Shown here piece by piece: positions 544 to 38,725 of a stretch of DNA of 38,741 nt. The notes beneath the pieces are model-generated. The model made no database searches. It was given only the letters and a program-made list of their open reading frames with translations, and had not been told where the DNA came from. Both the position numbers and the translations under genes were made by a program. Source of the stretch: Rickettsiales bacterium (GTDB lineage Bacteria > Pseudomonadota > Alphaproteobacteria > Rs-D84); assembly GCA_031267375.1 (NCBI GenBank), contig JAIRZE010000086.1, positions 1 to 38,741 on the forward strand, in the 5' to 3' direction. Each line of letters opens with the position of its first letter. Position 1 is the stretch's first letter.

Positions 544-1808
544 CCAAGGTATTCCACAGGATTGTGGAATATATAAAAAGCGGCAAGGTTATAATATTTT
601 GCCGCGGCGGAACATCATCATCAAAAACTTGGTCAATTTTGCAAGTTCTGATTCGTCGCGCCCAAAACGGGCATCAGGTAAATATAATTGGCCTGTCGTA
701 TGTCCATTTGCGCTTGGGTATAATCCGCGATATGCAATTAATCGCGCCGACAGTGGGTATTGATTGGAGCGCGCAATACAAGGTTGGGACAAACAGCCTG
801 TTGTTTCCGGGCGGCGGAATTATTAATTTTATTAGTGTAGATAAAATTGACAAGGCGCACGGATTGCGGTCCGGGGATTTATATATAAACGAGTGCAATT
901 ATCATTCGTGGGAAATTGTTGATCAACTACTCTCGCGCACATCTGGATTAAAGTTTCTGGACTGCAACCCGTCGGCGCGATTTTGGATTATAGATAAAAT
1001 TTTAGAAAATCCAAAATGGAAAGATGTTGCGATAGAAGATGTTAGTACTTATAAGGATAATGAATTTTTAGACGCATCAGTCGTTGCAGCGATTGAAGCC
1101 CACGACCCCGCCAGTAATTGGTGGCGTGTTTATGGCCTGGGCCAGTGGGGGATTCACGAGGGGTTGATTTTTGATAATTTCAAAATTCAGGAATTTAATA
1201 AGAATCAATTCGGCGAATATCGGTATGGGGTAGACTGGGGCTTTGGAACAGACCCTTTTGCGTTTGTTGAATGCGCGATTAATCCGCGGGAAAACAACCT
1301 GTATATATGTCGGGAAATCTATGGCAAAGGGCTGTTGAACCAACAGACCGCGCCGATAGTCAAGGATATTGCCGGCGCCGCAATTGTGATGTGCGACAGT
1401 GCGGAGCCAAAATCAATTGCGGATTATCAAACCGCCGGGATAAACGCAATCGGCGCCGACAAGGGGCACGGTTCCGTGTCGGCAGGTATCAAATATCTGC
1501 AAGGATATAATCAAATTATAATTCATCCGGATTGCGTCCGGGTGGGTTCGGAATTTGGTCAATACAGCTACAAAAAAAACCGGATAAGCGGTGAATATAT
1601 AGCCGAGCCAATAGACGAGTTCAATCACGGGATTGATGCAATCCGGTATGCGCTGAACTTTGACATAACAAGCGGCGATCGTTATAAGCCGCATCTGACT
1701 AAGGCCGAGCGGCAGGCGCAGATTGAAGAAAGTTATAATAAACAGATTGAAGATGTAATTAAACACAGTGGAAAGATAATAATTTCCACAAAAGGAATAA
1801 TACTATGA
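531..1808 (+). CDS. terL: Terminase large subunit (PBSX/Terminase_3-like)
   Basis: Walker A RGGTSSSKT, Walker B LYINE, coupling motif LDCNP, nuclease motifs GVDWGFGTDP, CDSAEP and NHGIDAIRY. Confidence 0.95.
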   Translation: MLRLTKVFHRIVEYIKSGKVIIFCRGGTSSSKTWSILQVLIRRAQNGHQVNIIGLSYVHLRLGIIRDMQLIAPTVGIDWSAQYKVGTNSLLFPGGGIINFISVDKIDKAHGLRSGDLYINECNYHSWEIVDQLLSRTSGLKFLDCNPSARFWIIDKILENPKWKDVAIEDVSTYKDNEFLDASVVAAIEAHDPASNWWRVYGLGQWGIHEGLIFDNFKIQEFNKNQFGEYRYGVDWGFGTDPFAFVECAINPRENNLYICREIYGKGLLNQQTAPIVKDIAGAAIVMCDSAEPKSIADYQTAGINAIGADKGHGSVSAGIKYLQGYNQIIIHPDCVRVGSEFGQYSYKKNRISGEYIAEPIDEFNHGIDAIRYALNFDITSGDRYKPHLTKAERQAQIEESYNKQIEDVIKHSGKIIISTKGIIL

Positions 1809-2074
1809 ATTTCAGACCATTAAAAGAATTGGTGCAGATTAAGATTTGCGCGGATTTAGAAAAGTCAGATCAGTTATTCGTTCGCGACAATGGCGATAGT
1901 GGAGATGCGAAGCAAACGCGTATCGTTAAAATTATTGCAAAGGGCGAGAGCTGCCGCGATACATATCAGGTTGGAGATAATTGTCTGATAGTGGACGGCC
2001 AACAATTGGAATCACCAGAAACGGGTTTAACCCTTTGTTTTGATATGGATATCTTGGGGGTCTTAAATGGTTGA
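1805..2074 (+). CDS. groES: Phage-encoded GroES/Cpn10-like co-chaperonin
   Basis: MNFRPLKELVQIK resembles MKIRPLHDRVIVK. It has a hydrophobic mobile-loop triad (LFV), 'IIAKGE...YQVGDNCLI' and C-terminal 'DMDILGVL' (compare ESDILAIV). 89 aa; ATGA overlap with the terL stop. Confidence 0.82.
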   Translation: MNFRPLKELVQIKICADLEKSDQLFVRDNGDSGDAKQTRIVKIIAKGESCRDTYQVGDNCLIVDGQQLESPETGLTLCFDMDILGVLNG

Positions 2075-5546: not shown

Positions 5547-6512
5547 ATGGCAGATGGAAATCTGAATTTTGACACAATGAAAGCAACCACGATAGACGAG
5601 TACTCTCGCTATCTGGATGATAATGTGTCTATTAACAATGAGCTGGGTAAGGATTTGAAAGCCCGCGGAAACTTGCGCCCCGATCGCGGCGGCTTGCGTA
5701 TTTTGGAAAGTTTATCCTATGCGTTTGCCGGCGATAAAGACGGGTTTGCGTTTCGTTTTACCGGGTCGGCTGAAATCCCGCTTCCCAATAAAAAGTTCGC
5801 CACCGCCGCGGAATTTGAAAGAAAGATGATCGCATCCCCGATTGTCTTTACAGACAGCGAGCGGCTGGCCAACTCTGGCGTGGCGCAAATGATTGACGAA
5901 ATCCAAGCGAAAGTTGAGAATGCGGCAGTGCTGATTCAGAATACTTTGGCAAACGACGAATATTCGGCAGGCGCGATTACCGATCAGATCGGCGGATTGC
6001 AGTTGTTGGTCCAGGATACTTTATCCGGCGCTGTCGGCGGAATCAATCAGCAGTCCAATCCTTGGTGGCGAAATTCCACCCAATCTGGCGCTTTGGCGAT
6101 AGAAAACATAGGTGGTTTTATGACCAATATGTATCTGGCAACAAAGTGCAACGCTGAAACGATTACCAACATATACGGCGATAACACCACTTGGACTTAT
6201 TACTATCAGTCCTTGGCGGATTTGCAGCGCTTTACCAACACCGACGGCAAAGGCGGCTTCACACCAAATTCCGTCGCGTTTATGGGTAATATACCCGTTA
6301 AACTGGACGGCGGTATCGGCGGATGCTGTCCCGTGGGCCATATGTACGGTCTGAATTTGGGCAAGATTTTCTTACGTGAAAATAAAGACTGGAAAGGCAA
6401 GCGCGGATTGCAGAAAGCAATTAATCAGGCGGTTGAAGTGGATATGTTCCGCTGGGCGGGCACGATGACCACATCGGGGCGCCGCTATCACGGCGTTATC
6501 TTTAACAGCTAA
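5547..6512 (+). CDS. Major capsid protein (HK97-fold, inferred)
   Basis: 'FDTMKATTIDEYSRYLDDNV...L...GGLRILESLSY' capsid-like N-terminus, 321 aa, strong AAGGA RBS, position after the scaffold gene. Confidence 0.88.
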   Translation: MADGNLNFDTMKATTIDEYSRYLDDNVSINNELGKDLKARGNLRPDRGGLRILESLSYAFAGDKDGFAFRFTGSAEIPLPNKKFATAAEFERKMIASPIVFTDSERLANSGVAQMIDEIQAKVENAAVLIQNTLANDEYSAGAITDQIGGLQLLVQDTLSGAVGGINQQSNPWWRNSTQSGALAIENIGGFMTNMYLATKCNAETITNIYGDNTTWTYYYQSLADLQRFTNTDGKGGFTPNSVAFMGNIPVKLDGGIGGCCPVGHMYGLNLGKIFLRENKDWKGKRGLQKAINQAVEVDMFRWAGTMTTSGRRYHGVIFNS

Positions 6513-6560: not shown

Positions 6561-6890
6561 ATGTCAGCAGTAGCAAGTTTTGCATTGGATACAGTCTGGA
6601 CGCCGCACGAACGCGCGATTACCGGCGTGCAACCGGGCGATTTCGTGGACGGGAAACAGGGGCGCGGCGTTGTCGCGCTGTTTCCGGCCGCGGTTAGCGC
6701 CAACACGGCGGTGTATGTTGACGGCACCTTTAACGGTACCGCAACATCGGCAACCGGAACACTGGCGGGCGTCGTTAACGCAGATGTCGCAGCCGGCAGT
6801 TATGCTGTCGTGCAGATAGAGGGATTGACTGGCGCGGGCGCCTGGATAGTTCCGACTGTCGTCGCGGCTGCACCGTCAGGTGGCGCATAA
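6561..6890 (+). CDS. Capsid decoration/cement protein (putative)
   Basis: 109-aa Ala/Gly/Val-rich, beta-type ORF directly after the capsid gene, followed by a terminator. Confidence 0.6.
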   Translation: MSAVASFALDTVWTPHERAITGVQPGDFVDGKQGRGVVALFPAAVSANTAVYVDGTFNGTATSATGTLAGVVNADVAAGSYAVVQIEGLTGAGAWIVPTVVAAAPSGGA

Positions 6891-6900
6891 CCCAAGCAAT

Positions 6901-6926
6901 AGTGCCGGCATCCTTTTGCCGGCACT
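6901..6926 (+). terminator. Intrinsic terminator between the decoration gene and groEL
   Basis: AGTGCCGGCA-tccttt-TGCCGGCACT followed by a short T run. Confidence 0.65.
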
Positions 6927-6953
6927 TTAATATATTGAAAAAGGATAATAAAA

Positions 6954-8258
6954 ATGCAAAAATGTAAGATAAAACGCGGAATTAACAAGGTTGTAGACTG
7001 TGTCGCCAAGACAGCGGGAAAATATGGCAAAAACATAATATTCACAAATTCAGCAGATTCAATCGCCACAAAAGACGGCGTGTCCGTCGTCCGTATGTTT
7101 AACCTGACGGATTCGGCAGAGATGACCGGCGTGAATCTGGTGCGGCAAGCTTGCGAGCAACAATTGCGCGAACACGGCGATGGCACGACGGCGACAGCGG
7201 TAATTATGCGCGAATTTTGCAAGCATAAATACACGCGCCAAGATATAGATTTTATTGATGTACAGCTTGAAAATTTGGAATTAAACAAGCTTCAAAATTG
7301 GGATTTAATGGATATAGCGACTGTATCCAGCAACGGCAATATGCCGATCAGCGCCGCGGTTGTGGAAGCTGTTAAAAAAATAGGCATAAACGGCAAGTTT
7401 ACCGGCGAACAGTGGTTTGAAAAAGGCATAAAAGTCAAGTATGCCCACGGTTTTGAATTCGGAAATGGTTTTATTTCAGAACAATTCGCAGATTCTGGGC
7501 AGTGGCACGCGATTAACCCCAAAGTGCTGATTTTTGATAATTATTCCGCAAGCGACAAAACACTGTTGGATGTCATATCCGCAAGCTTTCAGGCGGGTCA
7601 GCCGGTGCTGATTATCGGCAATCCGGACGAGTTGTTCTTGCGAAATGCAATTAATTGGAAAGGTGCCGGCAAGGGCGATATATGCCTGGTCCAGCCGTAT
7701 GGTATGGGCCACATTCGCCGAGATTTTATGAAAGATATTTTAGAGATCGCCGCCGTTGGAGTGGAAGAAGTGTATGTTAAGAATCATAGTACTGTTATAA
7801 GGTATTCCGGCGACCTATCGGATTATATCGCGAAGATTGAATCGTTGGAATTTGAAAGCGAATTGGAAAGGACTGAAAATAACGAGCGGATTGCCCGTTT
7901 GAAAGGCAATGTTGCGCGCTTTTTGGTTGGCGAGGATACAATCGCCGGCCTGCGCGCTGCAACCGACTGTCTGGATGACACTATTAAATCCTGTCTGTCG
8001 GCCGAAAAGCACGGCGCAGTCAAGGGCGGCGGGTTGGCGTTGTTTGAAGCGTCCAAGTCTGCGCATCTGCATCCGGCGTTAAGGGCGGCGATGCGGGCAC
8101 CGTATAAAAGCCTGCGCCGTTTGGGCAAAGTTGTCATAAGCGGCGATATAATAGATAGCGCCGGAGTTGTGAAAGCTTCATTGAAAAACGGCTGGGAGGC
8201 GGCAAAGCAGTTTATTAAGTCTGCCGATTTAATAATAGCCAAAGAGCCTGCGCGATGA
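6954..8258 (+). CDS. groEL: Phage-encoded, shortened GroEL/Cpn60-like chaperonin
   Basis: TKDGVSV, GDGTT, ATVSSNG (compare TISANS), ERIARLKGNVA (compare ERVAKLAGGVA), LDDT (D398 position), GAVKGGGLAL and IIDS. 434 aa; no GGM tail. Confidence 0.93.
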   Translation: MQKCKIKRGINKVVDCVAKTAGKYGKNIIFTNSADSIATKDGVSVVRMFNLTDSAEMTGVNLVRQACEQQLREHGDGTTATAVIMREFCKHKYTRQDIDFIDVQLENLELNKLQNWDLMDIATVSSNGNMPISAAVVEAVKKIGINGKFTGEQWFEKGIKVKYAHGFEFGNGFISEQFADSGQWHAINPKVLIFDNYSASDKTLLDVISASFQAGQPVLIIGNPDELFLRNAINWKGAGKGDICLVQPYGMGHIRRDFMKDILEIAAVGVEEVYVKNHSTVIRYSGDLSDYIAKIESLEFESELERTENNERIARLKGNVARFLVGEDTIAGLRAATDCLDDTIKSCLSAEKHGAVKGGGLALFEASKSAHLHPALRAAMRAPYKSLRRLGKVVISGDIIDSAGVVKASLKNGWEAAKQFIKSADLIIAKEPAR

Positions 8259-8848
8259 GCTATAACGAAATAGAACTTAAAAGAATACAGAAAAGCCGCG
8301 ATATACCGGCTTTTTTCTTTGTAAAACCACTGTACAACAGCGCGAAAAGCTTGTCCGCCGGCCGCCCCATATATGATCCGGTAATAATGCTGCAAGTTGA
8401 CACTGGCGGAACAGCAACTGTTGAAATAAAAGAATTTGCCGCGACGCCTGAATTAAAAAAACTGTATTCTGACGCTTGGAAATTTTTTGAAACCTATCAG
8501 GCGCCGCAGGTAAGAACCGGTATAAACGATCTGGAAATAGAAGAGCTGGCCGAACAGCACCCAGAAATTTATAGGGAATATATAAAGAATTGCAAAACCG
8601 CAACCGGGATAAGCGGGACACTAATTGAAGAACTGAACATTATTCCGATATCGGTGGTCCAAGAGTTGAAATCAATAGGTGTGTTTTATATAGAGCAGAT
8701 CTGGGATGAAACCGTGCCAACCGAAATTATAACAAGGGAAATATTGGACGCGGCCAAGCGCTATAAAAAGCTGTCCGAGCATAATTTTGATCTGAATCAG
8801 CTGGCCGACACGATAGACCAACTTTGCGATAAATTGGAAAATAAATAA
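8255..8848 (+). CDS. Hypothetical phage protein (head-tail junction)
   Basis: ATGA overlap with the groEL stop. 'S..AGRPIYD' and 'GT.IEEL..I....V.ELK.IG....EQ' recall a family I associate with this position in podophages. Confidence 0.6.
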   Translation: MSYNEIELKRIQKSRDIPAFFFVKPLYNSAKSLSAGRPIYDPVIMLQVDTGGTATVEIKEFAATPELKKLYSDAWKFFETYQAPQVRTGINDLEIEELAEQHPEIYREYIKNCKTATGISGTLIEELNIIPISVVQELKSIGVFYIEQIWDETVPTEIITREILDAAKRYKKLSEHNFDLNQLADTIDQLCDKLENK

Positions 8849-9600: not shown

Positions 9601-10647
9601 ATGAAGTTTTATGAAATCTTAAATGAAGTTTTGATAAAGGTCAATTTGACGCAGAATCAGACACTAAAACCGTTTGGTTCCGGCAGTCCGGAAATATTGG
9701 AATTAATATCACTGTTGAATGACTTGCTTCGCTCGTTCCCTGTGCAAGAAAAAATAACAGAATGTCTGGATGTATGTAATTTTAGAGTTTATTCGCCTTG
9801 GACACAAGGCACGGAATACAAAGTTGGGGATTGTGTATCCGGAATGTACCTTGGCAAACCGGTAGCTTATCAGGTTTTGTCTGGCGGCATATCCAACACA
9901 GAGCCAAACGGCGGGGGTATATTCTCTATGAATGTGTCGCCAAATTGGATTGGCGGCACACTTGTGCAGAGTACACAGGAATATATCAACGATAAGAGCG
10001 CGTGGCGTCCGGTCAATACTATGGTTTGCGGTAATGTCGCACCCAGCGGCAAGCAAGCGGAGTTTGTAGACGATATCGGGTGTGTATGGGTTCGCATACG
10101 CGATGTTTTGTATTGGAAAAATCTGGGCCCGGAATATTGCTATCCACTGGATGTAATCGCCCCGAATTGCGCAACGATTGCACCCAACACACTTTACAAT
10201 AAAACCACCAACCGCCAACTGAAAGAAATCAGCGCCGCGCAGTGGCAATTTAATGCCGCTCACAATATAACCGCGGCAAATGCGTATTATTCCATTTTTA
10301 ACAAAGCAATTAACCTGTTTCCCGGTTTTTCACAAAGGGATGAAATATCGTTTATGTATTATCGCAAGGATCTGGTGCAGGACGCATACGGCGAGATTAA
10401 GGACAGGTTTACCGAAGATGATGACGAGCTGTTATACATTCCCGATCAATTGTTTATTTGGGGCGCGGCCGAGCTTTGGCTGAAAATGAAAGGCTTTGAT
10501 GCAACCTTTGCCGGTATGCGGCTGCACGATGAGTTGTTGCCGGCATACCGCGCGCGTCAGCAAAATACCCAAAGAATCAGCCTGTGCGGCGACGGACCCG
10601 CCGCGTCAATGGTTCCGGACGGAAATTGGAAAATAATAACGGATTAA
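9601..10647 (+). CDS. Head-tail adaptor (tail tubular A / gatekeeper-like) with an inserted carbohydrate-binding-like segment
   Basis: The likely start is ATG 9601 after a GAGGA RBS. C-terminal 'DDDELLYIPDQLFIWGAAELWLKMKGFD' is adaptor-like, and the gene precedes the nozzle gene. Confidence 0.7.
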   Translation: MKFYEILNEVLIKVNLTQNQTLKPFGSGSPEILELISLLNDLLRSFPVQEKITECLDVCNFRVYSPWTQGTEYKVGDCVSGMYLGKPVAYQVLSGGISNTEPNGGGIFSMNVSPNWIGGTLVQSTQEYINDKSAWRPVNTMVCGNVAPSGKQAEFVDDIGCVWVRIRDVLYWKNLGPEYCYPLDVIAPNCATIAPNTLYNKTTNRQLKEISAAQWQFNAAHNITAANAYYSIFNKAINLFPGFSQRDEISFMYYRKDLVQDAYGEIKDRFTEDDDELLYIPDQLFIWGAAELWLKMKGFDATFAGMRLHDELLPAYRARQQNTQRISLCGDGPAASMVPDGNWKIITD

Positions 10648-10650
10648 ACT

Positions 10651-12159
10651 ATGCGCTGGAAAGAATCTGCACCAATCAATGGATTAGATCTAAAATCTTT
10701 GAAATCGGAAGTCCAAGACGGCTTTGCATTGCAGCTGAATAACCTGCTGCCGGATTTTGGCGCGGTAAAGGTCAGGCGCGGTTATTTCCCACTGATTAAC
10801 TTTAATACGCTGATGCCCGTAACGCGCATTATGAAGTTTGCAGATGCAAAGCAAATGATATACGCGTCCGGCAGTCAGCTTTTTATAAACGGAAGCCCGA
10901 TTTACACGGGCGCACAATCCGATTACTGGGTGGAAGCTTACCTGAAACATAACCTGTACCTGTGCAATGGTTTTGACACGGCAAAAGTTTACAATGGCAC
11001 AGCAGTCAGCGATATAGGGTTTACGAATGCCCTGGTATCTATCCAGAATTACGCCTGGTGCGCGAATCTGAATGGCGAGATTGTTTTCGGGATGCCAAAT
11101 TCTTTGGATATTTATGCGCCCGGAGTCGGCGTGGTATCCGGGCCGCTGAATCTGTTCAGCCTTTCTCAGTACGCCAAGCGCGGCGGATATATCGTATGCG
11201 CGGTATCCTGGGGACGCGACGCGTCCGACGGGTTTCATTCATATTCCGGCTTTTATACATCCGAGGGCGAGCTGATAGTTTATGAGGGCGCGGGATTCGG
11301 CGACGCGTCCGGCGATGTGTCGCTGGTGGGTAATTTTTATATCGGCCGCCCGCTGGGGCCGCGGCCGTACATAAATTACGGCGCGGAAATAATATTCATA
11401 ACCCAATCCGGGCTGATGCCGATGTCCGCAATCGTTGCAAACGGCGAAGTCATTAAGCGGTCTGATTTGTTCAGCGATTTAATCAACAATCTGTTCGCTG
11501 ACGGACCAAACAGCCAAGAATGGTGCGCGCATATTTCGCCAAAACAAAATATTGCCATTTTCAACCTGCCGGCCGAATATGGCAACCGCCAAGCGGTTAT
11601 GAACATAAACACCGGCGCGTGGAGTACTTTCAGCGGCTTTGATGCGCTGGATTTTGCTGATGATTTTGACGGCAACCTACTGATTGCAGGGCGCGACGGC
11701 ACGGTGTATCAATACGGCGGCCTTTCCGATAACGGCGGCCAAATTGAAACAACAATTCAATTCCGCTATTCAAAATGCGGCACTGATTATAATAAGCTGT
11801 TTAAGCTATTCGGCCTACGGTTGGAATCATCGGACGAGATTCGGCCGACATTTACGGTTGCAAAAGATTACTTGGATAAAACGCTGGGGTTTTCCGAATC
11901 CGCGGGCAATACCGGCAATGACTGGGCTATAACCGATGACCCGAATCCCGCGCTGGCAGATCCGACAGATCCGTCAGTTGGAATATTCTGGGACAGCGAA
12001 AAGTGGGGCGGCCTTTATCCGAAAGAGCTTTATAAATGGCATTCAATATCCGGATACGGACAGGCGCTGTCTGTAATTTGCAATATATCAACAAAAGATA
12101 TTGATTATAAAATTTATGAAAATCTTTATGAATTTGAAGTGTCAAGGGGCAAGTTATGA
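10651..12159 (+). CDS. Tail nozzle / stabilisation protein (tail tubular B, P22 gp10-like)
   Basis: 'APINGLD...ALQLNNLLPDFGAVKVRRGY' start, followed by ~500 aa of beta-propeller-like sequence. Confidence 0.82.
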   Translation: MRWKESAPINGLDLKSLKSEVQDGFALQLNNLLPDFGAVKVRRGYFPLINFNTLMPVTRIMKFADAKQMIYASGSQLFINGSPIYTGAQSDYWVEAYLKHNLYLCNGFDTAKVYNGTAVSDIGFTNALVSIQNYAWCANLNGEIVFGMPNSLDIYAPGVGVVSGPLNLFSLSQYAKRGGYIVCAVSWGRDASDGFHSYSGFYTSEGELIVYEGAGFGDASGDVSLVGNFYIGRPLGPRPYINYGAEIIFITQSGLMPMSAIVANGEVIKRSDLFSDLINNLFADGPNSQEWCAHISPKQNIAIFNLPAEYGNRQAVMNINTGAWSTFSGFDALDFADDFDGNLLIAGRDGTVYQYGGLSDNGGQIETTIQFRYSKCGTDYNKLFKLFGLRLESSDEIRPTFTVAKDYLDKTLGFSESAGNTGNDWAITDDPNPALADPTDPSVGIFWDSEKWGGLYPKELYKWHSISGYGQALSVICNISTKDIDYKIYENLYEFEVSRGKL

Positions 12160-12599
12160 GATTAACATACTATGCCTATCCCAATGGCGCCGTGTTTTTT
12201 AATTGGTGCAACAAGAAATTAAAGGGCAGATTAACGCAGTATAATTTTGTGCTTGCAATACAAGAAGAATCTGGTAAGATAAAAGGCGTAGTGGTTCTTA
12301 CCACATTTCCGCATAATCTGTATATAGACTGTGCTGGAATAGGAATGTGGCTGACACGCGACATTCTGAACAATATATTTAATTTCTGTTTCAAAAATTT
12401 ATCCTATAAAAGAATAACAGCCCTGACCAGTGCCAAGAATCACCGGGTGCACAAGTTTATATCGCGCCTGGGGTTTCGGCGCGAAGCTGTTCAAAAATAT
12501 GCTTGGGACGGGGAAATAGCTATGTGGACATTCGGTTTAGTTTGGGAAAACTGGTGCGCCACAAAATTTTATAAAAAAGGAAGAAAAAATGCCGGTTAA
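12156..12599 (+). CDS. GNAT-family acetyltransferase-like protein of the podovirus tail module
   Basis: 'RITALTSAKNHRVHKFISRLGFRREA' is a GNAT C-terminal motif; lies between nozzle and fibre genes. Confidence 0.75.
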   Translation: MRLTYYAYPNGAVFFNWCNKKLKGRLTQYNFVLAIQEESGKIKGVVVLTTFPHNLYIDCAGIGMWLTRDILNNIFNFCFKNLSYKRITALTSAKNHRVHKFISRLGFRREAVQKYAWDGEIAMWTFGLVWENWCATKFYKKGRKNAG

Positions 12600-14865: not shown

Positions 14866-15591
14866 ATGGGAAAAAGTCCAAGTATACCGACATACGATAC
14901 AGCGGCAGCGCAGAATGAGCAAATCTGGGCGGCCGATCAGAATCGTAAATACGGGCAAGTAAATTACAACGGATTGCAGGGTGGATATTCGTATCAAACC
15001 AATCCGGACGGAACGCAAACATTGGTTCAGAACGCATCATCGGCCGACAAAGCGCGGCAGAATCTGCAATCGCAATACCTTTCAGGTGTTGATCCGACAG
15101 AGTTATCAAACTTTAATGTAGATCCCAGTGTTGGGGCGAATGCGTACTGGAACGAGCAGATGACATATATGCAGCCCCAGTTCCAGCGCCAGACAAACGA
15201 TATTATAACTAATTTAGAAAAGCGCGGGATTCCGGCGGGTAGCCCACAGTTTAACCAAGCGATGCAAGAAGTCGCGGATGCCCAGAACCGGAGTATGGCG
15301 ACAACATCCGCAGGCGCGGTATCGGCCGGCCAGCAATATCAGACAAACGCCCTTAATAATATAATCAATAAGCAGGGGGCGCAGACTGGCGCAGCCGGAA
15401 GCTTGGCAAGCCAGATGTACCAAGTTAATCCATACAGCGGCACAGGCGGCACATTTGGCGGCACATACGACAGTCTGTACAACAGCCAAGTCCAGCAGGC
15501 CCAGCTGAAAGCCCAGCAACAAAACGCAATTATGGGTATGGTTGGTAGTATTGCTGGCGCAGGCGCCGGGGCTTTAACAGGGAGATTTTGA
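14866..15591 (+). CDS. DNA ejection (internal virion) protein 1
   Basis: MGKSPSIP start, Q/N/A-rich, C-terminal 'MGMVGSIAGAGAGAL' typical of P22 gp7-like pilot proteins. Confidence 0.72.
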   Translation: MGKSPSIPTYDTAAAQNEQIWAADQNRKYGQVNYNGLQGGYSYQTNPDGTQTLVQNASSADKARQNLQSQYLSGVDPTELSNFNVDPSVGANAYWNEQMTYMQPQFQRQTNDIITNLEKRGIPAGSPQFNQAMQEVADAQNRSMATTSAGAVSAGQQYQTNALNNIINKQGAQTGAAGSLASQMYQVNPYSGTGGTFGGTYDSLYNSQVQQAQLKAQQQNAIMGMVGSIAGAGAGALTGRF

Positions 15592-28789: not shown

Positions 28790-28887
28790 AACTTGTAATA
28801 GCGCCATTTTGGATGAATTGGGCATTTTGGGCCGCTGGATATAACTCCTATTATGTGTTTGTAAATATAGATAAATGGGTTAAATAA
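28786..28887 (+). CDS. Small Trp-rich peptide (33 aa) translationally coupled to the integrase
   Basis: ATGA overlap upstream and TAATG overlap with the integrase start; MKLVIAPFWMNWAFWAAGYNSYYVFVNIDKWVK. Confidence 0.45.
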   Translation: MKLVIAPFWMNWAFWAAGYNSYYVFVNIDKWVK

Positions 28888-30452
28888 TGAGCAACAACGC
28901 AGTCATTTATGCCAGAGTGTCTTCGGCCCAGCAGCGCCGGGATAATTCCATTGCGTCCCAGCTGGACGCCTGTCGCAAGTATGCGGCGGCGCGGGGTATG
29001 ACTGTGGTCCGTGAATTTATGGATGACGGATTTTCGGGCAAAAATGACCAGCGGCCGGACTTACAAAATATGCTGCGTTGGCTGAAAAAGAATCCGGACA
29101 CAACGGTCATAGCTTACGATACATCGCGCATAGCCCGGCATATCGGAACTATGTGCAATATCAGCGACGCAATAGATGTGGCGGATTGCAGTTTGTCATT
29201 CGTGGTAATGAACTTTGATAAAACGCCCGAGGGCGAATTTATGAAGAATATGATTTCCGCCCAGAATCAATACTTCCGCGAATCCAATACAAGAAAGGTA
29301 AAAGACAGTATGCTGAGCCAGATGAAGCTGGGTATATACCTGCTGAATCCGCCAATAGGATATGCAAGGTCAAGGGACGGCCAGAAACGACTGGTACTGG
29401 TAAGGGACGAGCCAACAGCAACGATAATAGCGGAAGCAATAGGCAAATACGCCACAGGACAACTGAATACAAAGCTTGATGTTGCAGACTGGCTGAACAA
29501 AAGACTGTCAAAGCCGATAGGTGAAGACACGGCCCGAAGAATAGTAGAGAGCCCAGTATACACTGCAAGGTTTGCTTACAAGCCCTGGGGTATACCAGAG
29601 CAGGATTGGCATATAGAACCAATAATAACCCCAGAACTGCACCAAAGGGTAATGGATAGGATAAAAGGCATAGGAAGACACCAGATGCGAAGCAACCTAC
29701 TTGAAGACTTTCCATTACGGGGATATGTAATCTGTGGATACTGCGGACACCCATTGACCAGCTGTTGGTCAAGTGGAAAGAATAATAAGTTCCCATACTA
29801 TTTTTGCTCCCAGAAAGGATGCAGTCATTATGGCAAGTCAATCCGCCGGGCGGACATTGAAGATGCAATGCTGACCGTTTTAAGCGACATCAGGGCAGAT
29901 GATAGCATTCTTGCGCTGGTTGACCTTATTATTGACAATGTTGCAGAAAAAGCGCATAATGAAGCATTGGCAAGCGCGAAGAACTTAAACGGCGTTATTG
30001 CCGATATTCAGAAAGAAATTGATGCGCTGGTGGATTTGATTGCGAAGCGCTCTTTGAATTGTGCGCTGGCCAATGACCCAGTGGCGGCGCAGTACGAAGA
30101 CAAGATTTGGAAATTGACTTCCCGGATTCAGGAATTGAAAGCAGATCAAAAGAATCTGGAAACCGGGCACGCAGGCAAGGATTATAGGGCAGCGTTTGAA
30201 CGGACGCGTGAGTTCATTAGAACACCTGTAAAATTGTTTGAAAATGGCGATTTATCGCAGAAAAGAAAGGTGCTTGAAGTAGTATTCAAGGGTAAACCGA
30301 GGTATTTCAGAAATGAGGGTTATAGAACACCGGAAATAGCCGAGATTTTCAGCATTTTATCAGAAAAAAACGAGAGTAAAATAGATTGGTGCACCCGGCG
30401 CGATTCGAACGCGCAATCCCCGCCTTCGGAGGGCGATGCTCTATCCAGTTAA
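28887..30452 (+). CDS. int: Large serine recombinase (integrase)
   Basis: YARVSS catalytic motif, D.GFSG...RP.L, SRIAR, recombinase domain, zinc ribbon CGYCG...YYFC...C, coiled coil. Confidence 0.95.
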   Translation: MSNNAVIYARVSSAQQRRDNSIASQLDACRKYAAARGMTVVREFMDDGFSGKNDQRPDLQNMLRWLKKNPDTTVIAYDTSRIARHIGTMCNISDAIDVADCSLSFVVMNFDKTPEGEFMKNMISAQNQYFRESNTRKVKDSMLSQMKLGIYLLNPPIGYARSRDGQKRLVLVRDEPTATIIAEAIGKYATGQLNTKLDVADWLNKRLSKPIGEDTARRIVESPVYTARFAYKPWGIPEQDWHIEPIITPELHQRVMDRIKGIGRHQMRSNLLEDFPLRGYVICGYCGHPLTSCWSSGKNNKFPYYFCSQKGCSHYGKSIRRADIEDAMLTVLSDIRADDSILALVDLIIDNVAEKAHNEALASAKNLNGVIADIQKEIDALVDLIAKRSLNCALANDPVAAQYEDKIWKLTSRIQELKADQKNLETGHAGKDYRAAFERTREFIRTPVKLFENGDLSQKRKVLEVVFKGKPRYFRNEGYRTPEIAEIFSILSEKNESKIDWCTRRDSNAQSPPSEGDALSS

Positions 30453-30463
30453 GCCACGGGTGC
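30387..30463 (-). tRNA. tRNA-Arg(CCG), probable prophage attachment site
   Basis: Minus strand GCACCCG...CTCCGAA...GTTCGAATC...CGGGTGC-A-CCA; all stems pair; 77 nt. Confidence 0.95.
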
Positions 30464-30502: not shown

Positions 30503-30577
30503 ATAAAAATAATCACGCGAGCACAACAAAGCTATCTTTATGCGCTCGGACAGAAATCAAAACGAACACGCAGTGTT

Positions 30578-30702
30578 CGTCATCCCTTTGAGGCTCGGGA
30601 TCCACTGCGTCGCAGACCTTAATCCTCGAAGCGGATACACTGTATAAATGCTTCGCATTAAAGCCTGCGGCGCAGTGGATCCCGGCCTGCGCCGGGATGA
30701 CG
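30578..30702. repeat. REPIN/REP-like long imperfect palindrome
   Basis: CGTCATCCC...GGGATCCACTGCGTCGCAG...CTGCGGCGCAGTGGATCCC...GGGATGACG; contains a GTCATCCCGGCGCAGGCCGGGATCCA unit on the minus strand. Confidence 0.75.
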
Positions 30703-30797
30703 ATTTACTTCGTAAATCGTTTTGATTTTATTTTGATTCTTAAAAGATACACTCTTTGCACTTGCATCTATAATAATAATTGACTACAATTTGGCAA

Positions 30798-31259: not shown

Positions 31260-31280
31260 CTGGATTCCTTTATTCAAACA

Positions 31281-31321
31281 CCCTCCCCGGCCACTTCGTG
31301 GCCACCCCTCCATAGGAGGGG
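31281..31321. repeat. REP-like double hairpin
   Basis: GGCCAC-ttc-GTGGCC followed by CCCCTCC-ata-GGAGGGG. Confidence 0.55.
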
Positions 31322-31379
31322 AATTTTCACCGAGTTTAATTTCCACCAATTGCTAATTGATAATTGCTAACTGCTAATT

Positions 31380-31403
31380 AAAAACGCCCAAACGGGCGTT
31401 TTT
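31380..31403. terminator. Bidirectional terminator between the lipoprotein gene and aqpZ
   Basis: AAAAACGCCC-AAAC-GGGCGTTTTT. Confidence 0.85.
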
Positions 31404-32192: not shown

Positions 32193-32268
32193 GGCTAGGT
32201 AGCTCAGTTGGTAGAGCAAGGGACTGAAAATCCCTGTGTCGGCGGTTCGATTCCGTCCCTAGCCACCA
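32193..32268 (+). tRNA. tRNA-Phe(GAA)
   Basis: GGCTAGG...CTGAAAA...GGTTCGATTCC...CCTAGCC-A-CCA; 76 nt; upstream TTGCAT-17 nt-TAAACT. Confidence 0.96.
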
Positions 32269-32318: not shown

Positions 32319-35300
32319 CTAAAACCTGCTGGACAGGCCAATGTGGCCGCTGATTCCGCTGATGTCATTCCCGCTGCGCAAATTAATTTTCGCTTCCACA
32401 GATGTAGAATCCGCAACCTGCCCCACCAGGCCCACACCATACTCAAAGTATGAATCCGGCGCAGTCAAATCCTGCATTTCAACCTGGCCCGCCGTATTCT
32501 TTACCTTATTCATCATATTCTTTACATAGCTTCCCGAAAAGAACGCATTAAAAGAATCCATCCCAAGCATAGCCGAAATCCCCGGGATTGCCGTAAATCC
32601 GGCCAGTTTGTCGGAATGCATTGCAATATCGCCGTAATTGGAATTCCAATTTTGTGCGCCGAAATAATTATATGACAGCGTCAAATTCGGCTGGATTATC
32701 ACATTCTGGGTTCCCGGACGCCAATCATACGCCAGCTTTCCGGCCGCGCCTGCAAACCAATTGTCAACGGAATCATCGGTGCCGGCGACTTGGATTTTGT
32801 TATTATAAATTCCGCCATAGCCCAGAATCGCAGCGATGAAATCCCCGTCGGACCAGCTGCTCATCAAGCCTGCTTGCGCGCCGTTCTGGGTCATTTCCAC
32901 GCCGTTAAAGCTTTGTTTTCCGCCGTTGTATTCCATATAAAATGTCGGAACCCAATGCCATCTGCCGCCAATAGAAACCGCGTCAAAATCATATCCAGCG
33001 ATAACACCGAAAGAATCATTGCTGATTTCATCCAGCGCCTGATTCAGATTCAATTTTTCTTTTCCGCCGTATGCTTTTGCAAAGACTCCGTCTTTGTGGC
33101 GCTCAAACTGCCAGGGCGCGAATTCGCAGTGCAGGCACTCGTTGCTGTCCATAAAGATATGCTCAAACATAATATTATTCAGCATAGTCTGGGCGGACAA
33201 TACCGCGCTTGCAGCAACACCGCCGCGCGGGCCCGCCGGGTTCAAGTCTTGCAGCCGCAGCTCATAATTACCGCTGCCCAGCGAGTACAGGCCGTAATCG
33301 CCCACAGCCGTGGAAACGCGCTGACTGCCGGCCGCAAATTGAATAGATGAATCATAACTTGGCGATTCCATAATCGTAAACGGCACGACCGCAACGGTTG
33401 GCGAATTCAGCAAATTTACCTGGGACAAAATTACCGTTCCGCCCATTGCGATCGTATCCGCAACACCAGTTGCAGAGTTTCCCGGCGCCGCCAAATCCCC
33501 CGGCGCCGCGGTGCCGCCGCTGAAAGAAAATACATCAGAAACAAAATTCTGAGCATCCAAATCAACCGCAAAATTGGCCGTGGTAGTGCTTGAATTAATG
33601 GCCGAATACAATGCGAACTTTCCAGCGAATGTGTGCGTCTGCAACGCGCCGTCTATACTGTTAAATGTCGCGCCGTCGCCCATTGCCAGATTACCGCTGG
33701 TTTGCGCGTATGTTCCGTTTCCCGCGCCCAGAGTCAGGGTATAATCTATCGCATACACTGTGGAGTTTGACAAGACAATATCGCCGCCGAATATTCCGTT
33801 ATATGAATTATTGCGATTCAAATATCCCGTCGCCATATTCTGCAAAAATATAACTCCGCCGGTCTGCACGAATGCGCCCGAATACACCAGCATATTTTTG
33901 CCGCCCATAATCACCCAGCCGTCGGACATACTGGCCGCTCCAAAACTGCCGTCCGCTTCCACCAGCATATCCGTCGCGCCCAGGTACAATGTTCCGCCGG
34001 CAATCTCGTAATATCCCGTATGAAACAGATTAAAGTTCGCAGCCTTGCCTATCAAGTCATTCACATTGCCCAGGCGCAGCGATCCGTATAAATTGATAGA
34101 ACCGCCGGTTATATTCAGCACCGCGGCGTCATCTTTCGCCGCGTCTGCGTTCCAATTCAAAGTACCGGCATTTATATTGCTTGTCCCGCCAAAGAAATTT
34201 CCATTGGCGTTCACAATACCGTTGCTCATATTAAATGCGCCCAAGTACTGCGAATTATCGCCGTTCAGATTTAATATCGCGGCGCCGTCTTTATTTATGA
34301 CGCCGACGCTTGTGCCACTGATTCCGCCGTTAAAACTAATGCTGCCGCCGGTTGACGCGAATGTCAATATTCCGGAATTATACAAGTCATTGCCGGTGCT
34401 GCGGCGATAATTTTCGCTGAAAACTATATCGCCGCCGGACATCGCGACCAGGGTCAAATTACCGGCATTATATATCGCGCCACCCGCGCCGGTATCCGCC
34501 ACATTTCCTGTGAAATTCATTTCCGATGTTCCGGAATAAATAGTCAAGGTTCCATTTGCGTCATTATAAATCGCCCCGCCAGATGCCGCGGTATTGTTGG
34601 TAAAAGATCCCGCGCTGATCTGCAAATTCGCATTATTATAAATCGCGCCGGCCGTGTTATGATCCCAATCAGTATTTTGGACAGAAACAGTTCCCGCCAG
34701 AATATTCAATGCCACGCCGTTGTTCTGTTGAATCAGCAAGTCAGACAATAACGCCGTGGAATTAGCATTATTCATAGTCAGAACATTGGTTGAATTTTCC
34801 ACCGTCAAATCCGCCAATGTAAAATATGTATCATCAATTCCTACATTAAACAAAGACTGATAAATACTTAGATCCGTCGCATTCAATCCTGATAATACGC
34901 TGGTGCGGGTGCCGGAATTCGCGCCGTGAACAGAAAAAGTTCCGGCGGCCATTGGATCCAAATCCGCCGCATTATAATAAACTTCGTTCGCGCCGATTTG
35001 CCACGCGCGCGCGGTGGCGCTGGAAAAAGTCGCCGCGATCGCCGTCGGCGTCAATGCGTTCACATCATTCAGGACCAAGACTGTCGCCGCGCCCGTATCC
35101 GGAGTATTAATATTTACAGTCGGGCTTTCGCCGTCGCCGCCGGGCGTTATGACAACTTGTCCGCCGGGAATATCAACTGTTCCGCCGTCGCCCGGATTTA
35201 CAACTGTTGTATTTCCGCCGCCGGTATCAACGGTTATCAGTCCGGTATCCGGATCTTGGGTTATGCTCGTCGTTCCGCCGCCGCTGCCGCCGGTATCAAC

Positions 35301-37656: not shown

Positions 37657-38725
37657 CTATCTCTGCAACAGGGAAAGCATAAAGTCATCCAGGTCCCCGT
37701 CCAGCACCGCCGCGCTGTCCGTCTTTTCCACACCGGTGCGCACATCCTTTACCAGCTGGTACGGATACAGGACATAGTTCCTGATCTGGCTGCCCCATTC
37801 TATCTTTTTCTGGGCGGCTTTTTCGGCATCCGCTTCCGCGGCGCGTTTCTGCATTTCTAATTCGTATAATTTAGACCGCAGCATCTTCATCGCCATTTCG
37901 CGGTTTTGCAGCTGTGATCGCTCGTTCTGGCACTGCACCACCGTGTTGGTCGGCAAGTGAGTTATCCGCACCGCGCTGTCCGTTTTATTAACGTGCTGGC
38001 CGCCCGCGCCCTGGGCCCGGTAAGTATCTATGCGCAGATCTTTTTCATTAATCTCTATCTCTATGGAATCGTCAATGTCGGGCCAGACATCAATGCTGGC
38101 GAAACTGGTCTGACGCTTTCCATTCGCATTAAAAGGCGAAATTCGCACCAGGCGGTGAACCCCAATCTCGTTTTTCAGCCAGCCGTACGCGCGCGGGCCG
38201 CTTATCTGAAAAGTTGCGCTTTTTATTCCGGCGGTGTCCCCCGGATGCTCTTCCACGACAGATACCGCAAAGCCGTGCCGCTCCGCCCAGCGCTGATACA
38301 TTCGCGACAGCATCTGGGCCCAGTCTTGGGCCTCGGTCCCGCCGGCGCCCGCCTGGATAAAAAGAAATGCGTCCTGGCCGTCCGCCGGACCACTGAATAA
38401 AGTGATGAATTTTGCCCTGTGCGCGGATTCCGCAAGTTTTGAAACAGCAGCGGCGACATCCAAATCTTCCGGCGCCATTTGCGCCAACTCGCGCAGGTTT
38501 TCATATTCTGTTTCCAAAGCGGCAAATTCGCCCAGGGATTTTTCCAATGCTGATTTTTTTTGCAAAAGCACGCGCGCAGAATCAGGATTGCTCCACAGGT
38601 CCGGGTTATTTGTCTGGGCGGTTAAATCGGCGATTTGGGATTTCAGGGAATCCGGGTCAAAGATACCCCCGCAGCGAAGAAACATCGCTGTCAATTTGGG
38701 CTAAAAGTTCATTTGCATTTACCAT
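37657..38725 (-). CDS. prfB: Peptide chain release factor 2 with programmed +1 frameshift
   Basis: SPF and GGQ motifs. ATG 38725 opens MVNANELLAQIDSDVSSLRGYL-TGA, and the frame shifts at CTT-TGA-C into the 345-aa ORF. Confidence 0.96.
38656..38670 (-). promoter_or_regulatory. RF2 +1 frameshift cassette
   Basis: GGGGG-TAT-CTTTGAC (internal SD plus slippery stop) on the minus strand. Confidence 0.93.

What the first reader, a model, noticed from the sequence alone, without database searches (positions are those of the whole stretch)
6954..8258. Phage GroEL is stripped to 434 aa, losing both inter-ring contact regions: predicted single-ring chaperonin
Manual alignment to E. coli GroEL (548 aa) shows the ATP-site residues retained (D52 in TKDG, GDGTT, D398 position in LDDT, GGG, IDS). 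Deletions fall at the N-terminal strand, the ~100-130 region (left inter-ring contact around A109), apical ~300-320, the ~430-490 region (right contact R452/E461/S463/V464) and the GGM tail. LGPKG has become AGKYG. Inference: a catalytically intact but single-ring or altered-allostery chaperonin, smaller than the known phage single-ring ones.
Basis: inference. Interest (0 to 1): 0.7.

Follow-up and report, generated by a model that had tools for sequence, protein, structure and literature searches.

The report
Stripped-down phage GroEL with own GroES
A temperate phage integrated in a tiny-genome alphaproteobacterium encodes the smallest GroEL-type folding machine seen in this search (434 aa), which lacks the segments that join GroEL's two rings, and it also carries a matching mini-GroES lid, so it is probably a natural single-ring chaperonin for building the phage head.

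Summary
Window 6954-8258 (+) is an intact 434-aa GroEL homologue (hhalign probability 100 %; AF2 pLDDT 85; TM up to 0.81 to open GroEL/Hsp60).

Profile-profile alignment on E. coli numbering places deletions at:
- the N-terminal strand;
- K105-M111;
- A127-K132;
- V300-Q319;
- D428-I440 (E434/D435);
- P462-N487 (S463/V464 and the N479-A481 nucleotide loop);
- the GGM tail.

Both conserved inter-ring salt bridges (K105-E434, R452-E461) are impossible. T30, K51, D52, D87, D398, the first glycine of GGG (G414) and D495 are invariant across the 15 aligned clade members, and GGG is intact in the window.

The protein belongs to a monophyletic clade (100/100) of 411-457-aa phage chaperonins that always lie in head/packaging modules. 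None of 367 other GroELs loses both contact segments.

The phage also encodes an 89-aa divergent GroES (1805-2074): hhalign 90 %, and an unbiased AF2 model whose top 27 PDB hits are all co-chaperonins.

Single-ring assembly is a reasonable but untested inference. Phage EL still forms double rings after similar, milder changes, and loss of the N-terminal strand could compromise ring assembly itself. "Catalytically intact" is overstated. Verdict: a new reduced variant of a known kind.

The parts
6954..8258 (+). 434-aa reduced GroEL-like chaperonin (47.6 kDa, pI 8.0)
   Evidence: ORF. PHROG 5725 'chaperonin groEL' E 3.6e-50. PDB GroELs E 1e-26 to 4e-33. hhalign versus canonical GroEL probability 100 %. 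AF2 pLDDT 85.3. Foldseek GroEL/Hsp60 TMq up to 0.81.
7011..7028 (+). TAGKYG, equivalent to GroEL T30-G35 (TLGPKG) nucleotide-phosphate loop; T, G, G invariant in the clade
7068..7079 (+). TKDG (GroEL T50-G53; D41 = D52)
   Evidence: Invariant in 15 clade members; coordinates.
7176..7190 (+). GDGTT (GroEL G86-T90; D76 = D87)
7221..7247 (+). Truncated end of helix D and junction of the K105-M111 deletion (KHKY|TRQDI): left inter-ring contact K105/A108/A109 removed
   Evidence: hhalign. In the AF2 model the helix-D equivalent is only residues 78-89.
7749..7769 (+). Junction of the 20-residue apical-domain deletion V300-Q319 (AAVG|VEE)
7971..7982 (+). LDDT; D342 = catalytic D398 of GroEL
   Evidence: Invariant.
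8025..8033 (+). GGG (GroEL G414-G416)
8058..8081 (+). Junction of the D428-I440 deletion (SAH-L-HPAL): E434/D435 contact removed
8115..8147 (+). Junction of the P462-N487 deletion (RRLGKV|VISGD): helix Q, S463/V464/N467 and the N479-A481 loop removed. K385 = R452 and V393 = E461. The model is disordered here (residues 386-397).
8148..8159 (+). IIDS (GroEL I493-P496; D401 = D495)
1805..2074 (+). 89-aa divergent GroES-like co-chaperonin. It overlaps the TerL stop (ATGA) and the portal start. It has a disordered mobile loop with an LFV triplet and a shortened roof hairpin.
   Evidence: BLASTP versus E. coli GroES E 0.003. Family conserved upstream of the portal gene in L003, L006 and L018-20. hhalign versus 8 GroES probability 89.9 %, E 1.7e-6, with negative controls at 0.1-1.4 %. 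AF2 from 4 phage sequences pLDDT 81.7. The top 27 Foldseek PDB hits are all GroES/Hsp10/Cpn10/T4 gp31.
5547..6512 (+). Major capsid protein (321 aa, 35 kDa): the most likely client (inference)
   Evidence: phrog_9953 E 5.6e-51; mass.
6561..6890 (+). 109-aa post-MCP protein, probably a capsid cement/decoration protein and not a GroES
   Evidence: The positional counterpart in L003 weakly matches Phage_cement_2. It stays with the MCP when GroEL lies elsewhere. No Cpn10 signal.
6902..6936 (+). Terminator-like hairpin (GTGCCGGCA-TCCTTT-TGCCGGCAC followed by a T-rich run) between the cement gene and the GroEL gene
   Evidence: Read directly from the sequence.

Best explanation
The gene encodes a functional, ATP-driven group-I chaperonin that reductive evolution in a phage lineage has pared down to about 80 % of GroEL's size. 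It keeps the three-domain GroEL fold and the catalytic and phosphate-binding residues.

It has lost the N-terminal strand, the end of helix D, the start of helix O, helix Q with the following hairpin, a 20-residue apical excursion and the GGM tail. These losses remove every element that forms GroEL's staggered ring-ring interface, including both conserved salt bridges.

It is encoded in the head-morphogenesis module together with a cognate, equally minimal GroES-like lid.

Most likely (inferred) it assembles as a single heptameric ring that cycles with the phage GroES, as mitochondrial Hsp60/Hsp10 does, and folds phage head proteins, chiefly the 35-kDa major capsid protein, without depending on the host GroESL.

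Shown: homology, fold, the deletions, motif conservation, clade membership, synteny and the GroES-like partner. Inferred: oligomeric state, ATPase activity, use of the phage GroES, and the client.
For: - Homology and fold.
- Deletions mapped to K105-M111, D428-I440 and P462-N487. The AF2 model has a truncated helix D and a disordered stump where helix Q was.
[quoted passage not shown] Here K105 and E434 are deleted and E461 is Val.
- Conservation: T30, K51, D52, G86, D87, T90, D398, G414 and D495 are invariant across 15 clade members that are only 26-51 % identical.
- Clade: monophyletic at 100/100. It stands apart in profile score, >=225 bits versus <=197 bits. None of 367 other GroELs loses both contact segments.
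- Synteny: the gene always lies in head/packaging modules, and TerL (46 %), MCP (36 %) and GroEL (34 %) diverge at similar rates between related phages.
- Cognate GroES-like gene.
- Real phage: a prophage of this host, with the host's dispersed repeats in the flank and two perfect CRISPR spacers.
- The host has its own canonical groESL, so the phage copy is an addition, not a replacement.
Against: - No oligomeric-state data, and only monomer models could be made.
- Phage EL has a shortened helix D and no helix Q but still forms apo double rings via 1:1 contacts. From my own knowledge, mHsp60 forms double-ring footballs with ATP/Hsp10 despite lacking the salt bridges.
- The N-terminal beta-strand that joins the inter-subunit sheet within a ring is deleted.
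- The N479-A481 nucleotide loop is gone.
- The helix-I hydrophobic residues that bind substrate and the GroES mobile loop are poorly conserved in part of the clade.
- Pfam Cpn60_TCP1 scores just below its cut-off (34.0 versus 34.3 bits).
- More distant clade members show no GroES-like neighbour on their short contigs.
- The GroES assignment rests on remote homology (hhalign 90 %, Foldseek E about 1e-3).
Confidence: 0.55

Rival explanations
1. It is a double-ring (or ring-exchanging) chaperonin that uses a new, non-GroEL ring-ring interface, as phage EL gp146 does with 1:1 in-register contacts.
For: EL shows the same trend (helix D one turn shorter, helix Q replaced) and is a tetradecamer in the apo and ADP states (PMC7185714). 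Losing GroEL's contact residues therefore does not by itself exclude a second ring.
Against: EL's new contacts are made by the inserted loop that replaces helix Q, plus an extra helix N2. Here that segment is simply deleted, with 26 residues gone and a disordered 12-residue stump left. That leaves very little protruding surface on the equatorial base. K105, E434 and E461 are also lost.
Confidence: 0.2
2. It no longer forms a closed GroEL-type ring. It acts as a monomer, dimer or lower oligomer: an ATP-modulated holdase or assembly factor for head proteins, comparable to the poorly oligomerising mycobacterial Cpn60s.
For: - The N-terminal strand (Ec 2-13) of the inter-subunit beta-sheet is deleted.
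- The inter-subunit allosteric salt-bridge residues R197 and E386 are replaced.
- pI is 8.0, unlike GroEL, which from my own knowledge is acidic.
- Mycobacterial Cpn60.1 homologues show impaired oligomerisation (PMC13673040 abstract).
Against: - The stem-loop (residues 28-39) and the C-terminal strand region are retained.
- The full ATPase core is under strong conservation.
- A GroES-like partner, which only makes sense with a seven-fold ring, co-occurs in the lineage.
Confidence: 0.17
3. It works without the phage 89-aa protein, either with the host GroES or with no co-chaperonin, as EL/OBP/AR9 do. On this reading the 89-aa protein is a GroES-fold protein with another role, for example head completion.
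For: - Characterised phage chaperonins need no co-chaperonin.
- The host encodes a canonical GroES.
- Pfam and PHROG models do not detect the 89-aa protein.
- It is not adjacent to the GroEL gene in this window.
Against: - The best structural matches are specifically co-chaperonins, ahead of other GroES-fold domains.
- The GroES N-terminal signature, the hydrophobic mobile-loop triplet and a disordered loop are all present.
- The gene is conserved in all five close relatives that carry the short GroEL, and lies about 500 nt downstream of it in L003, L006 and L020.
- Viral GroEL+GroES pairs are common (PMC5649160).
Confidence: 0.2
4. It is a decaying, non-functional remnant of a captured groEL.
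For: It has lost 114 residues relative to GroEL. Pfam scores it just under the cut-off.
Against: - Intact ORFs occur in about 15 clusters at 50 % identity, with the catalytic residues invariant.
- Head-module synteny is conserved.
- The fold is predicted with confidence.
- Deletions fall at surface elements, not in the core.
Confidence: 0.03

Closest known systems
E. coli GroEL/GroES (group I chaperonin, Cpn60/Cpn10)
   Same: Same three-domain fold (TMq 0.7-0.8). Same catalytic and phosphate-binding residues. No group-II-type lid detected: the best structural and sequence matches are all group I. A GroES-fold partner gene is present.
   Different: - 114 residues shorter.
- Lacks the N-terminal strand, K105-M111, V300-Q319, D428-I440, P462-N487 and the GGM tail.
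- Both inter-ring salt bridges are impossible.
- The allosteric salt-bridge residues are replaced.
- pI is 8.0.
- The genes are not arranged as a groES-groEL operon.
Mitochondrial Hsp60/Hsp10, and the engineered GroEL SR1 (R452E/E461A/S463A/V464A; mutant composition from my own knowledge)
   Same: Loss of the inter-ring salt bridges, with retained dependence on a lid. mHsp60 lacks both bridges and is purified as a single ring (PMC8292379). Open mHsp60 single-ring structures are among the best structural matches (9shk, 7azp, 8g7l).
   Different: mHsp60 and SR1 keep the full-length equatorial domain and change only side chains. Here the whole secondary-structure elements are excised, and the nucleotide loop 479-481 is also missing.
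Jumbo-phage chaperonins: EL gp146 (double to single ring), OBP gp246 and AR9 gp228 (single ring)
   Same: They are phage-encoded, divergent GroEL homologues. EL also shortens helix D and replaces helix Q. OBP and AR9 are single heptamers.
   Different: - Those proteins are 515-562 aa as deposited (PDB chains 6tmt 558 and 6hdd 515; AR9 562), come from jumbo phages, work without a co-chaperonin and act on endolysins in vitro.
- This one is 434 aa, sits in a temperate prophage of about 30 kb, has a GroES-like partner and lies in the head module.
- Sequence similarity to EL is only local, over the N-terminal ~80 residues (6tmt, E 4e-12).
Virioplankton and Bacteroidota-phage GroEL(+GroES) genes (Marine et al. 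2017; Cellulophaga phi14:2, Flavobacterium elemo phages, crAss-like cr111)
   Same: Phage GroELs that often come with their own GroES, some of which lack the roof hairpin. The 469-480-aa metagenomic forms already share the V300-Q319 deletion and part of the 105-111 and 428-441 losses.
   Different: Those are 469-520 aa and keep 23-33 residues of the 455-488 segment, including N479-A481. They fall outside the short clade in the tree.
T4 gp31 co-chaperonin (comparison for the 89-aa partner)
   Same: A phage-encoded GroES-fold lid dedicated to capsid-protein folding. It is among the structural hits (1g31, TMq 0.63). The roof region is reduced.
   Different: gp31 works with the host GroEL, is longer (107-residue chain) and has an extended mobile loop. 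Here the phage brings its own GroEL as well.

Membership tests
Group I chaperonin (GroEL/Cpn60, Pfam PF00118) | Sequence homology to Cpn60 over the whole length | tested here: met
   hhalign probability 100 %, E 2.6e-61, 434 aligned columns. phmmer versus PDB GroELs reaches E 3.6e-33. PHROG 5725 E 3.6e-50. Caveat: the Pfam HMM scores 34.0 bits against a 34.3-bit cut-off.
Group I chaperonin (GroEL/Cpn60, Pfam PF00118) | Equatorial-intermediate-apical three-domain fold | tested here: met
   AF2 pLDDT 85.3. Foldseek TMq up to 0.81 to open GroEL/Hsp60 chains.
Group I chaperonin (GroEL/Cpn60, Pfam PF00118) | ATP-binding and hydrolysis residues (T30, K51, D52, GDGTT/D87, D398, GGG, D495) | tested here: met
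   All are present in the window. T30, K51, D52, G86, D87, T90, D398, G414 and D495 are invariant in the 15-member clade alignment; G88 and G416 are nearly invariant and T89 and G415 vary.
Group I chaperonin (GroEL/Cpn60, Pfam PF00118) | Nucleotide base/ribose pocket loop N479-A481 | tested here: not met
   Deleted in the window and in most clade members. It is retained in the early-branching P0123 and P0128, and in P0127, which was not in the tree.
Group I chaperonin (GroEL/Cpn60, Pfam PF00118) | Staggered double-ring interface: K105-E434 and R452-E461 salt bridges, plus A109 and S463/V464 contacts | tested here: not met
   K105-M111, E434-I440 and P462-N487 are deleted. E461 is Val, and only R452 survives, as Lys. 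The salt bridges are defined in PMC8292379.
Group I chaperonin (GroEL/Cpn60, Pfam PF00118) | Heptameric ring assembly | not testable with these tools
   Only monomer predictions were possible. The stem-loop is kept but the N-terminal strand is lost.
Group I chaperonin (GroEL/Cpn60, Pfam PF00118) | Works with a Cpn10 (GroES) lid | tested here: inconclusive
   A GroES-fold gene is present and co-conserved. Physical interaction was not tested, and the helix-H/I groove is only partly hydrophobic.
Group I chaperonin (GroEL/Cpn60, Pfam PF00118) | C-terminal Gly-Met-rich tail | tested here: not met
   The protein ends ...LIIAKEPAR, at about Ec residue 525.
Natural single-ring chaperonins (mHsp60, OBP gp246, AR9 gp228) | Absence of GroEL's inter-ring salt bridges and contacts | tested here: met
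Natural single-ring chaperonins (mHsp60, OBP gp246, AR9 gp228) | Heptamer, not tetradecamer, in solution | not testable with these tools
   Needs SEC-MALS, mass photometry or cryo-EM.
Co-chaperonin-independent jumbo-phage chaperonins (EL gp146 type) | No cognate co-chaperonin; close sequence relationship to gp146/gp246/gp228 | tested here: not met
   A GroES-like gene is present. 6tmt and 6hdd match only over the N-terminal ~80 residues (E 4e-12 and 4e-4).
Cpn10/GroES (PF00166), for the 89-aa partner | Cpn10 profile match | tested here: not met
   No Pfam or PHROG hit even at E 10. The six-frame search of the assembly finds only the host gene.
Cpn10/GroES (PF00166), for the 89-aa partner | GroES beta-barrel fold with a disordered mobile loop carrying a hydrophobic triplet | tested here: met
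   AF2 pLDDT 81.7 with a disordered loop at about residues 18-37. The top 27 PDB matches are co-chaperonins. LFV aligns with the IVL triplet of GroES.

The most novel reading that the evidence does not exclude
The short clade is a previously undescribed, naturally minimal group-I chaperonin system. It would be an obligate single-ring GroEL of about 47 kDa that has excised, not merely mutated, the entire ring-ring interface, the N-terminal strand, one nucleotide-pocket loop and the cavity-plugging tails. It cycles with an equally minimal phage GroES. The reduction was stepwise: early-branching members still keep part of the 455-488 segment. This would define the minimal structural requirements for an encapsulating chaperonin.
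Probability: 0.4. Interest if true: 0.72.

Novelty: new variant of a known kind. Interest (0 to 1): 0.6.

Why it matters
GroEL is the model system for chaperonin mechanism, and the role of the second ring has been argued from engineered mutants (SR1) and from mHsp60.

A natural lineage that has physically deleted the inter-ring elements while keeping the ATPase core and a dedicated lid would be an evolutionary experiment on three questions:
- what the second ring is needed for;
- what the N-terminal strand, helix Q and the 479-481 loop are needed for;
- what the C-terminal tails are needed for.

It would also be a compact (47 kDa + 10 kDa) chaperonin pair for structural and biotechnological work.

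Biologically, it shows that even a temperate phage of about 30 kb, in a host whose genome is about 1 Mb, invests about 1.6 kb in its own folding machine placed inside the head module. That points to capsid-protein folding as a limiting step in such hosts.

Tried and rejected
1. The ~200-aa gene directly downstream of the GroEL gene (8255-8848) as a conserved partner: rejected. Its homologue in L003 and L006 stays next to the MCP module while GroEL sits after TerL.
2. The 109-aa ORF directly upstream (6561-6890) as GroES, in the canonical groES-groEL order: rejected. It has no Cpn10 signal, and its positional counterpart weakly matches phage cement proteins.
3. Mis-binning of the phage contig: rejected. 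The right end carries the host's dispersed repeats, tRNA-Arg sits at the integrase end, and two perfect CRISPR spacers match.
4. Recent capture of the host groEL: rejected. The host GroEL is a canonical 549-aa protein far from the short clade in the tree.
5. Searches that found nothing:
   - a word-based homologue search with the 89-aa protein found only itself;
   - IMG/VR pattern scan with the small-protein alignment;
   - the GTDB representative-genome scan returned only canonical GroELs;
   - 100 genomes related to the host hold no short GroEL;
   - small ORFs next to the distant clade members P0123 and P0129 are not GroES-like.
6. A column-shuffle null for hhalign timed out. I replaced it with unrelated small ORFs as negative controls.
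7. The first E. coli coordinates I fetched were the wrong locus; corrected.
8. The hmmalign-based segment counts misplace some C-terminal residues of short members. I used them only for the qualitative comparison, and took coordinates from hhalign.
Full report
**What is there**

Window 6954-8258 (+) is an intact 434-aa ORF. An in-frame TGA lies six codons upstream of the ATG, and an AGGA Shine-Dalgarno sits 8 nt before it. The open frame is 439 codons, so the short N-terminus is not a start-codon artefact. The stop overlaps the next gene's start (ATGA).

The protein is a diverged GroEL:
- PHROG 5725 'chaperonin groEL', E 3.6e-50;
- PDB GroEL/Hsp60 chains, E 1e-26 to 4e-33;
- Pfam Cpn60_TCP1 falls just under its cut-off, at 34.0 versus 34.3 bits.

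An AlphaFold2 model built from a 57-sequence alignment has pLDDT 85.3. It superposes on open-state GroEL/Hsp60 chains with TMq up to 0.81.

**Checking the deletions**

I fetched authentic E. coli GroEL and aligned it with the protein and its relatives. I then ran a profile-profile alignment of 15 short chaperonins against 23 canonical ones (probability 100 %, E 2.6e-61).

In E. coli numbering the protein lacks:
- residues 2-13, the N-terminal strand;
- K105-M111;
- K117, A127-K132 and K142;
- D253;
- V300-Q319;
- five residues around 335-352;
- D428-Q432 and E434-I440;
- V455;
- P462-N487;
- everything after about residue 525, including the Gly-Met tail.

The model agrees. The helix-D equivalent is 12 residues (78-89) instead of 21, and the site of the large deletion is a disordered 12-residue stump (386-397).

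Three corrections apply:
- The R452 position survives, as K385.
- E461 is substituted (V393) rather than deleted.
One is the N479-A481 nucleotide-pocket loop. The other is the set of allosteric salt-bridge residues (R197->N, E386->I, D83->R, K327->N).

[quoted passage not shown] Three of those four residues are gone, so GroEL's staggered interface cannot form.

**It is a clade, not a one-off**

A word-based search found five relatives of 434-444 aa, 33-51 % identical. A full HMMER scan of 1.84 billion representatives with their profile found about 15 clusters of 411-457 aa. These score >=225 bits, ahead of a clear gap to all other chaperonins at <=197 bits.

In a maximum-likelihood tree the short proteins form one clade (100/100) on a long branch. 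That clade is well separated from cellular GroELs, from the 469-520-aa phage GroELs and from the host's own GroEL.

The earliest-branching members (P0128, P0123) still keep about 23 residues of the 455-488 segment, including N479-A481. This suggests stepwise reduction.

Among 367 other GroELs collected here, none loses both the 105-111 and the 455-488 segments.

Across 15 members that share only 26-51 % identity, these residues are invariant: T30, G32, G35, T50, K51, D52, G53, G86, D87, T90, D398, G414 and D495. That is strong evidence of selection for ATPase function.

Annotated GroELs of isolated phages are 490-520 aa. BFVD viral chaperonins are 511-609 aa. The three characterised viral chaperonins, EL, OBP and AR9, are 515-562 aa as deposited and all come from giant phages. 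'Smaller than the known ones' is therefore correct.

**Context**

The window is one whole contig (C58) of a 0.92-Mb, 109-contig MAG. The MAG's own GroEL is about 80 % identical to those of MAGs labelled Rickettsiales/Alphaproteobacteria. Its family consists of genomes of 0.7-1.1 Mb that are 61-100 % complete, mostly above 90 %.

Positions 1 to about 30,450 are a temperate prophage. Gene order is:
- TerS, TerL, the 89-aa ORF, portal, a 107-aa ORF, scaffold, MCP;
- a 109-aa cement-like protein, then GroEL;
- tail genes;
- the immunity region;
- a serine integrase abutting tRNA-Arg.

The right flank carries short dispersed repeats shared with more than 20 other contigs of the bin. A CRISPR array on contig C66 contains two perfect 30-nt spacers against the prophage, matching window 10170-10199 and 15125-15156. 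So the phage-host link is real.

The host has a canonical groES-groEL operon on C75.

Related phages (L003, L004, L006, L018-L020) share the head module: TerL 46 %, portal 27 %, MCP 36 % and GroEL 34 % identity. In them the GroEL gene sits directly after TerL instead of after the cement gene. More distant clade members also lie next to terminase genes. The chaperonin is thus an old, mobile-within-module component of head morphogenesis in this lineage.

**A cognate GroES**

I tested it independently.

The 89-aa product gets no Pfam or PHROG hit and only E 0.003 against E. coli GroES by BLASTP.

It does have homologues immediately upstream of the portal gene in every close relative. They share the N-terminal signature M-x-I-x-P-L-x-x-Q-V-I-V-K-K.

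A profile of the four phage proteins aligns end to end with a profile of eight genuine GroES proteins (hhalign 89.9 %, E 1.7e-6). Seven unrelated small phage ORFs give 0.1-1.4 %.

An AF2 model built only from the four phage sequences has pLDDT 81.7. It is all-beta and has a disordered loop where the mobile loop should be. Its top 27 PDB matches are all GroES, Hsp10, Cpn10 or T4 gp31 (probability 1.00, TMq 0.50-0.63). Generic GroES-fold dehydrogenase domains appear only after those.

In the alignment, LFV replaces the IVL triplet of the mobile loop, and the roof hairpin is shortened by about 7 residues. Roof-hairpin deletions are known in viral GroES (PMC5649160).

The gene overlaps both the TerL stop and the portal start.

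**Interpretation**

The best-supported reading is a functional, minimal GroEL/GroES pair dedicated to head assembly. The 35-kDa MCP is the most likely client, by position and by analogy with T4 gp23/gp31. That client assignment is an inference.

Single-ring assembly is plausible:
- every element of GroEL's ring-ring interface is excised;
- mHsp60, which merely lacks the two salt bridges, is a single ring;
- from my own knowledge, four point mutations suffice for SR1.

It remains untested, and there are real counter-arguments:
- Phage EL made similar but milder changes and still forms double rings, through the loop that replaces helix Q. Here that loop is absent, which weakens this rival without excluding it.
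- The missing N-terminal strand and the replaced R197/E386 pair could compromise ring assembly or cooperativity itself.
- The missing 479-481 loop means 'catalytically intact' is unproven.
- If the protein is a single ring with a lid, lid release must work without a trans ring. That is the reason SR1-GroES is a dead end. It predicts weak or transient binding of the phage GroES.

**Novelty**

Viral GroEL(+GroES) genes are known and common, and single-ring viral chaperonins are known.

What I could not find in three full-text searches of the held paper library or in BFVD is a clade of about 430-450-aa chaperonins that combines three things: the interface elements, the N-terminal strand and a nucleotide loop are all deleted; a minimal GroES accompanies it; and it sits in small temperate phages.

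I rate it a new variant of a known kind. Interest is moderate to high for chaperonin specialists.

Noticed in passing
G000 contig C66 ~2537-2900; window 10170-10199 and 15125-15156: The MAG carries a CRISPR array (36-nt repeat GGTACAGATTCACATAAAAAGGCGGGTTTCCCCGCC, five 30-nt spacers). Two of the spacers match this prophage perfectly. That means either self-targeting or a population that mixes lysogens and immune cells.
   Followed up: partly
window 30550-30750 and 31275-31390: Short dispersed repeats (about 45-100 nt, 87-97 % identical) shared with more than 20 other contigs of the same MAG. They look like a REP/MITE-type host element and mark the right end of the window as host DNA.
   Followed up: partly
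window 30387-30463 (-) and 28887-30452 (+): tRNA-Arg(CCG) overlaps the 3' end of the serine-integrase gene, which is the likely attachment site. tRNA-Phe lies at 32193-32268.
   Followed up: partly
window 6902-6936: A perfect 9-bp GC-rich hairpin followed by a T-rich run lies between the cement-like gene and the GroEL gene. It could attenuate read-through, so that the chaperonin is made at a lower level than the capsid proteins.
   Followed up: no
window 6954-8258: The short GroEL has a calculated pI of 8.0, whereas its GroES-like partner has pI 4.5. GroEL is strongly acidic (my own knowledge), so the cavity electrostatics may be inverted.
   Followed up: no
window 32319-37583 (-) and 37657-38694 (-): In the host flank there is a 1754-aa ORF with no PHROG hit, and a 345-aa protein with an RF-1 (peptide chain release factor) domain (phrog_19918, E 1e-96).
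   Followed up: no
window 10651-12159 and 12156-12599: A 502-aa protein labelled 'amidase' (phrog_5107) and a 147-aa acyl-CoA N-acyltransferase-like protein sit inside the virion module. Both have homologues in relative L005, and the 502-aa protein also in L003 and L006.
   Followed up: no
L003 10001-12191, L006 10001-12133, L020 8001-10143: In related phages the order is TerL, short GroEL, a ~200-aa unknown protein, the GroES-like gene, then portal. The ~200-aa gene between GroEL and GroES (193-207 aa, 49 % identical between L003 and L006) has no counterpart in the window and no known family.
   Followed up: partly
The genome search relatives (G001-G020): The host family consists of genomes of only 0.7-1.1 Mb, mostly above 90 % complete, so it is a genuinely reduced-genome alphaproteobacterial lineage. 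None of the 100 relatives searched carries a short GroEL.
   Followed up: partly
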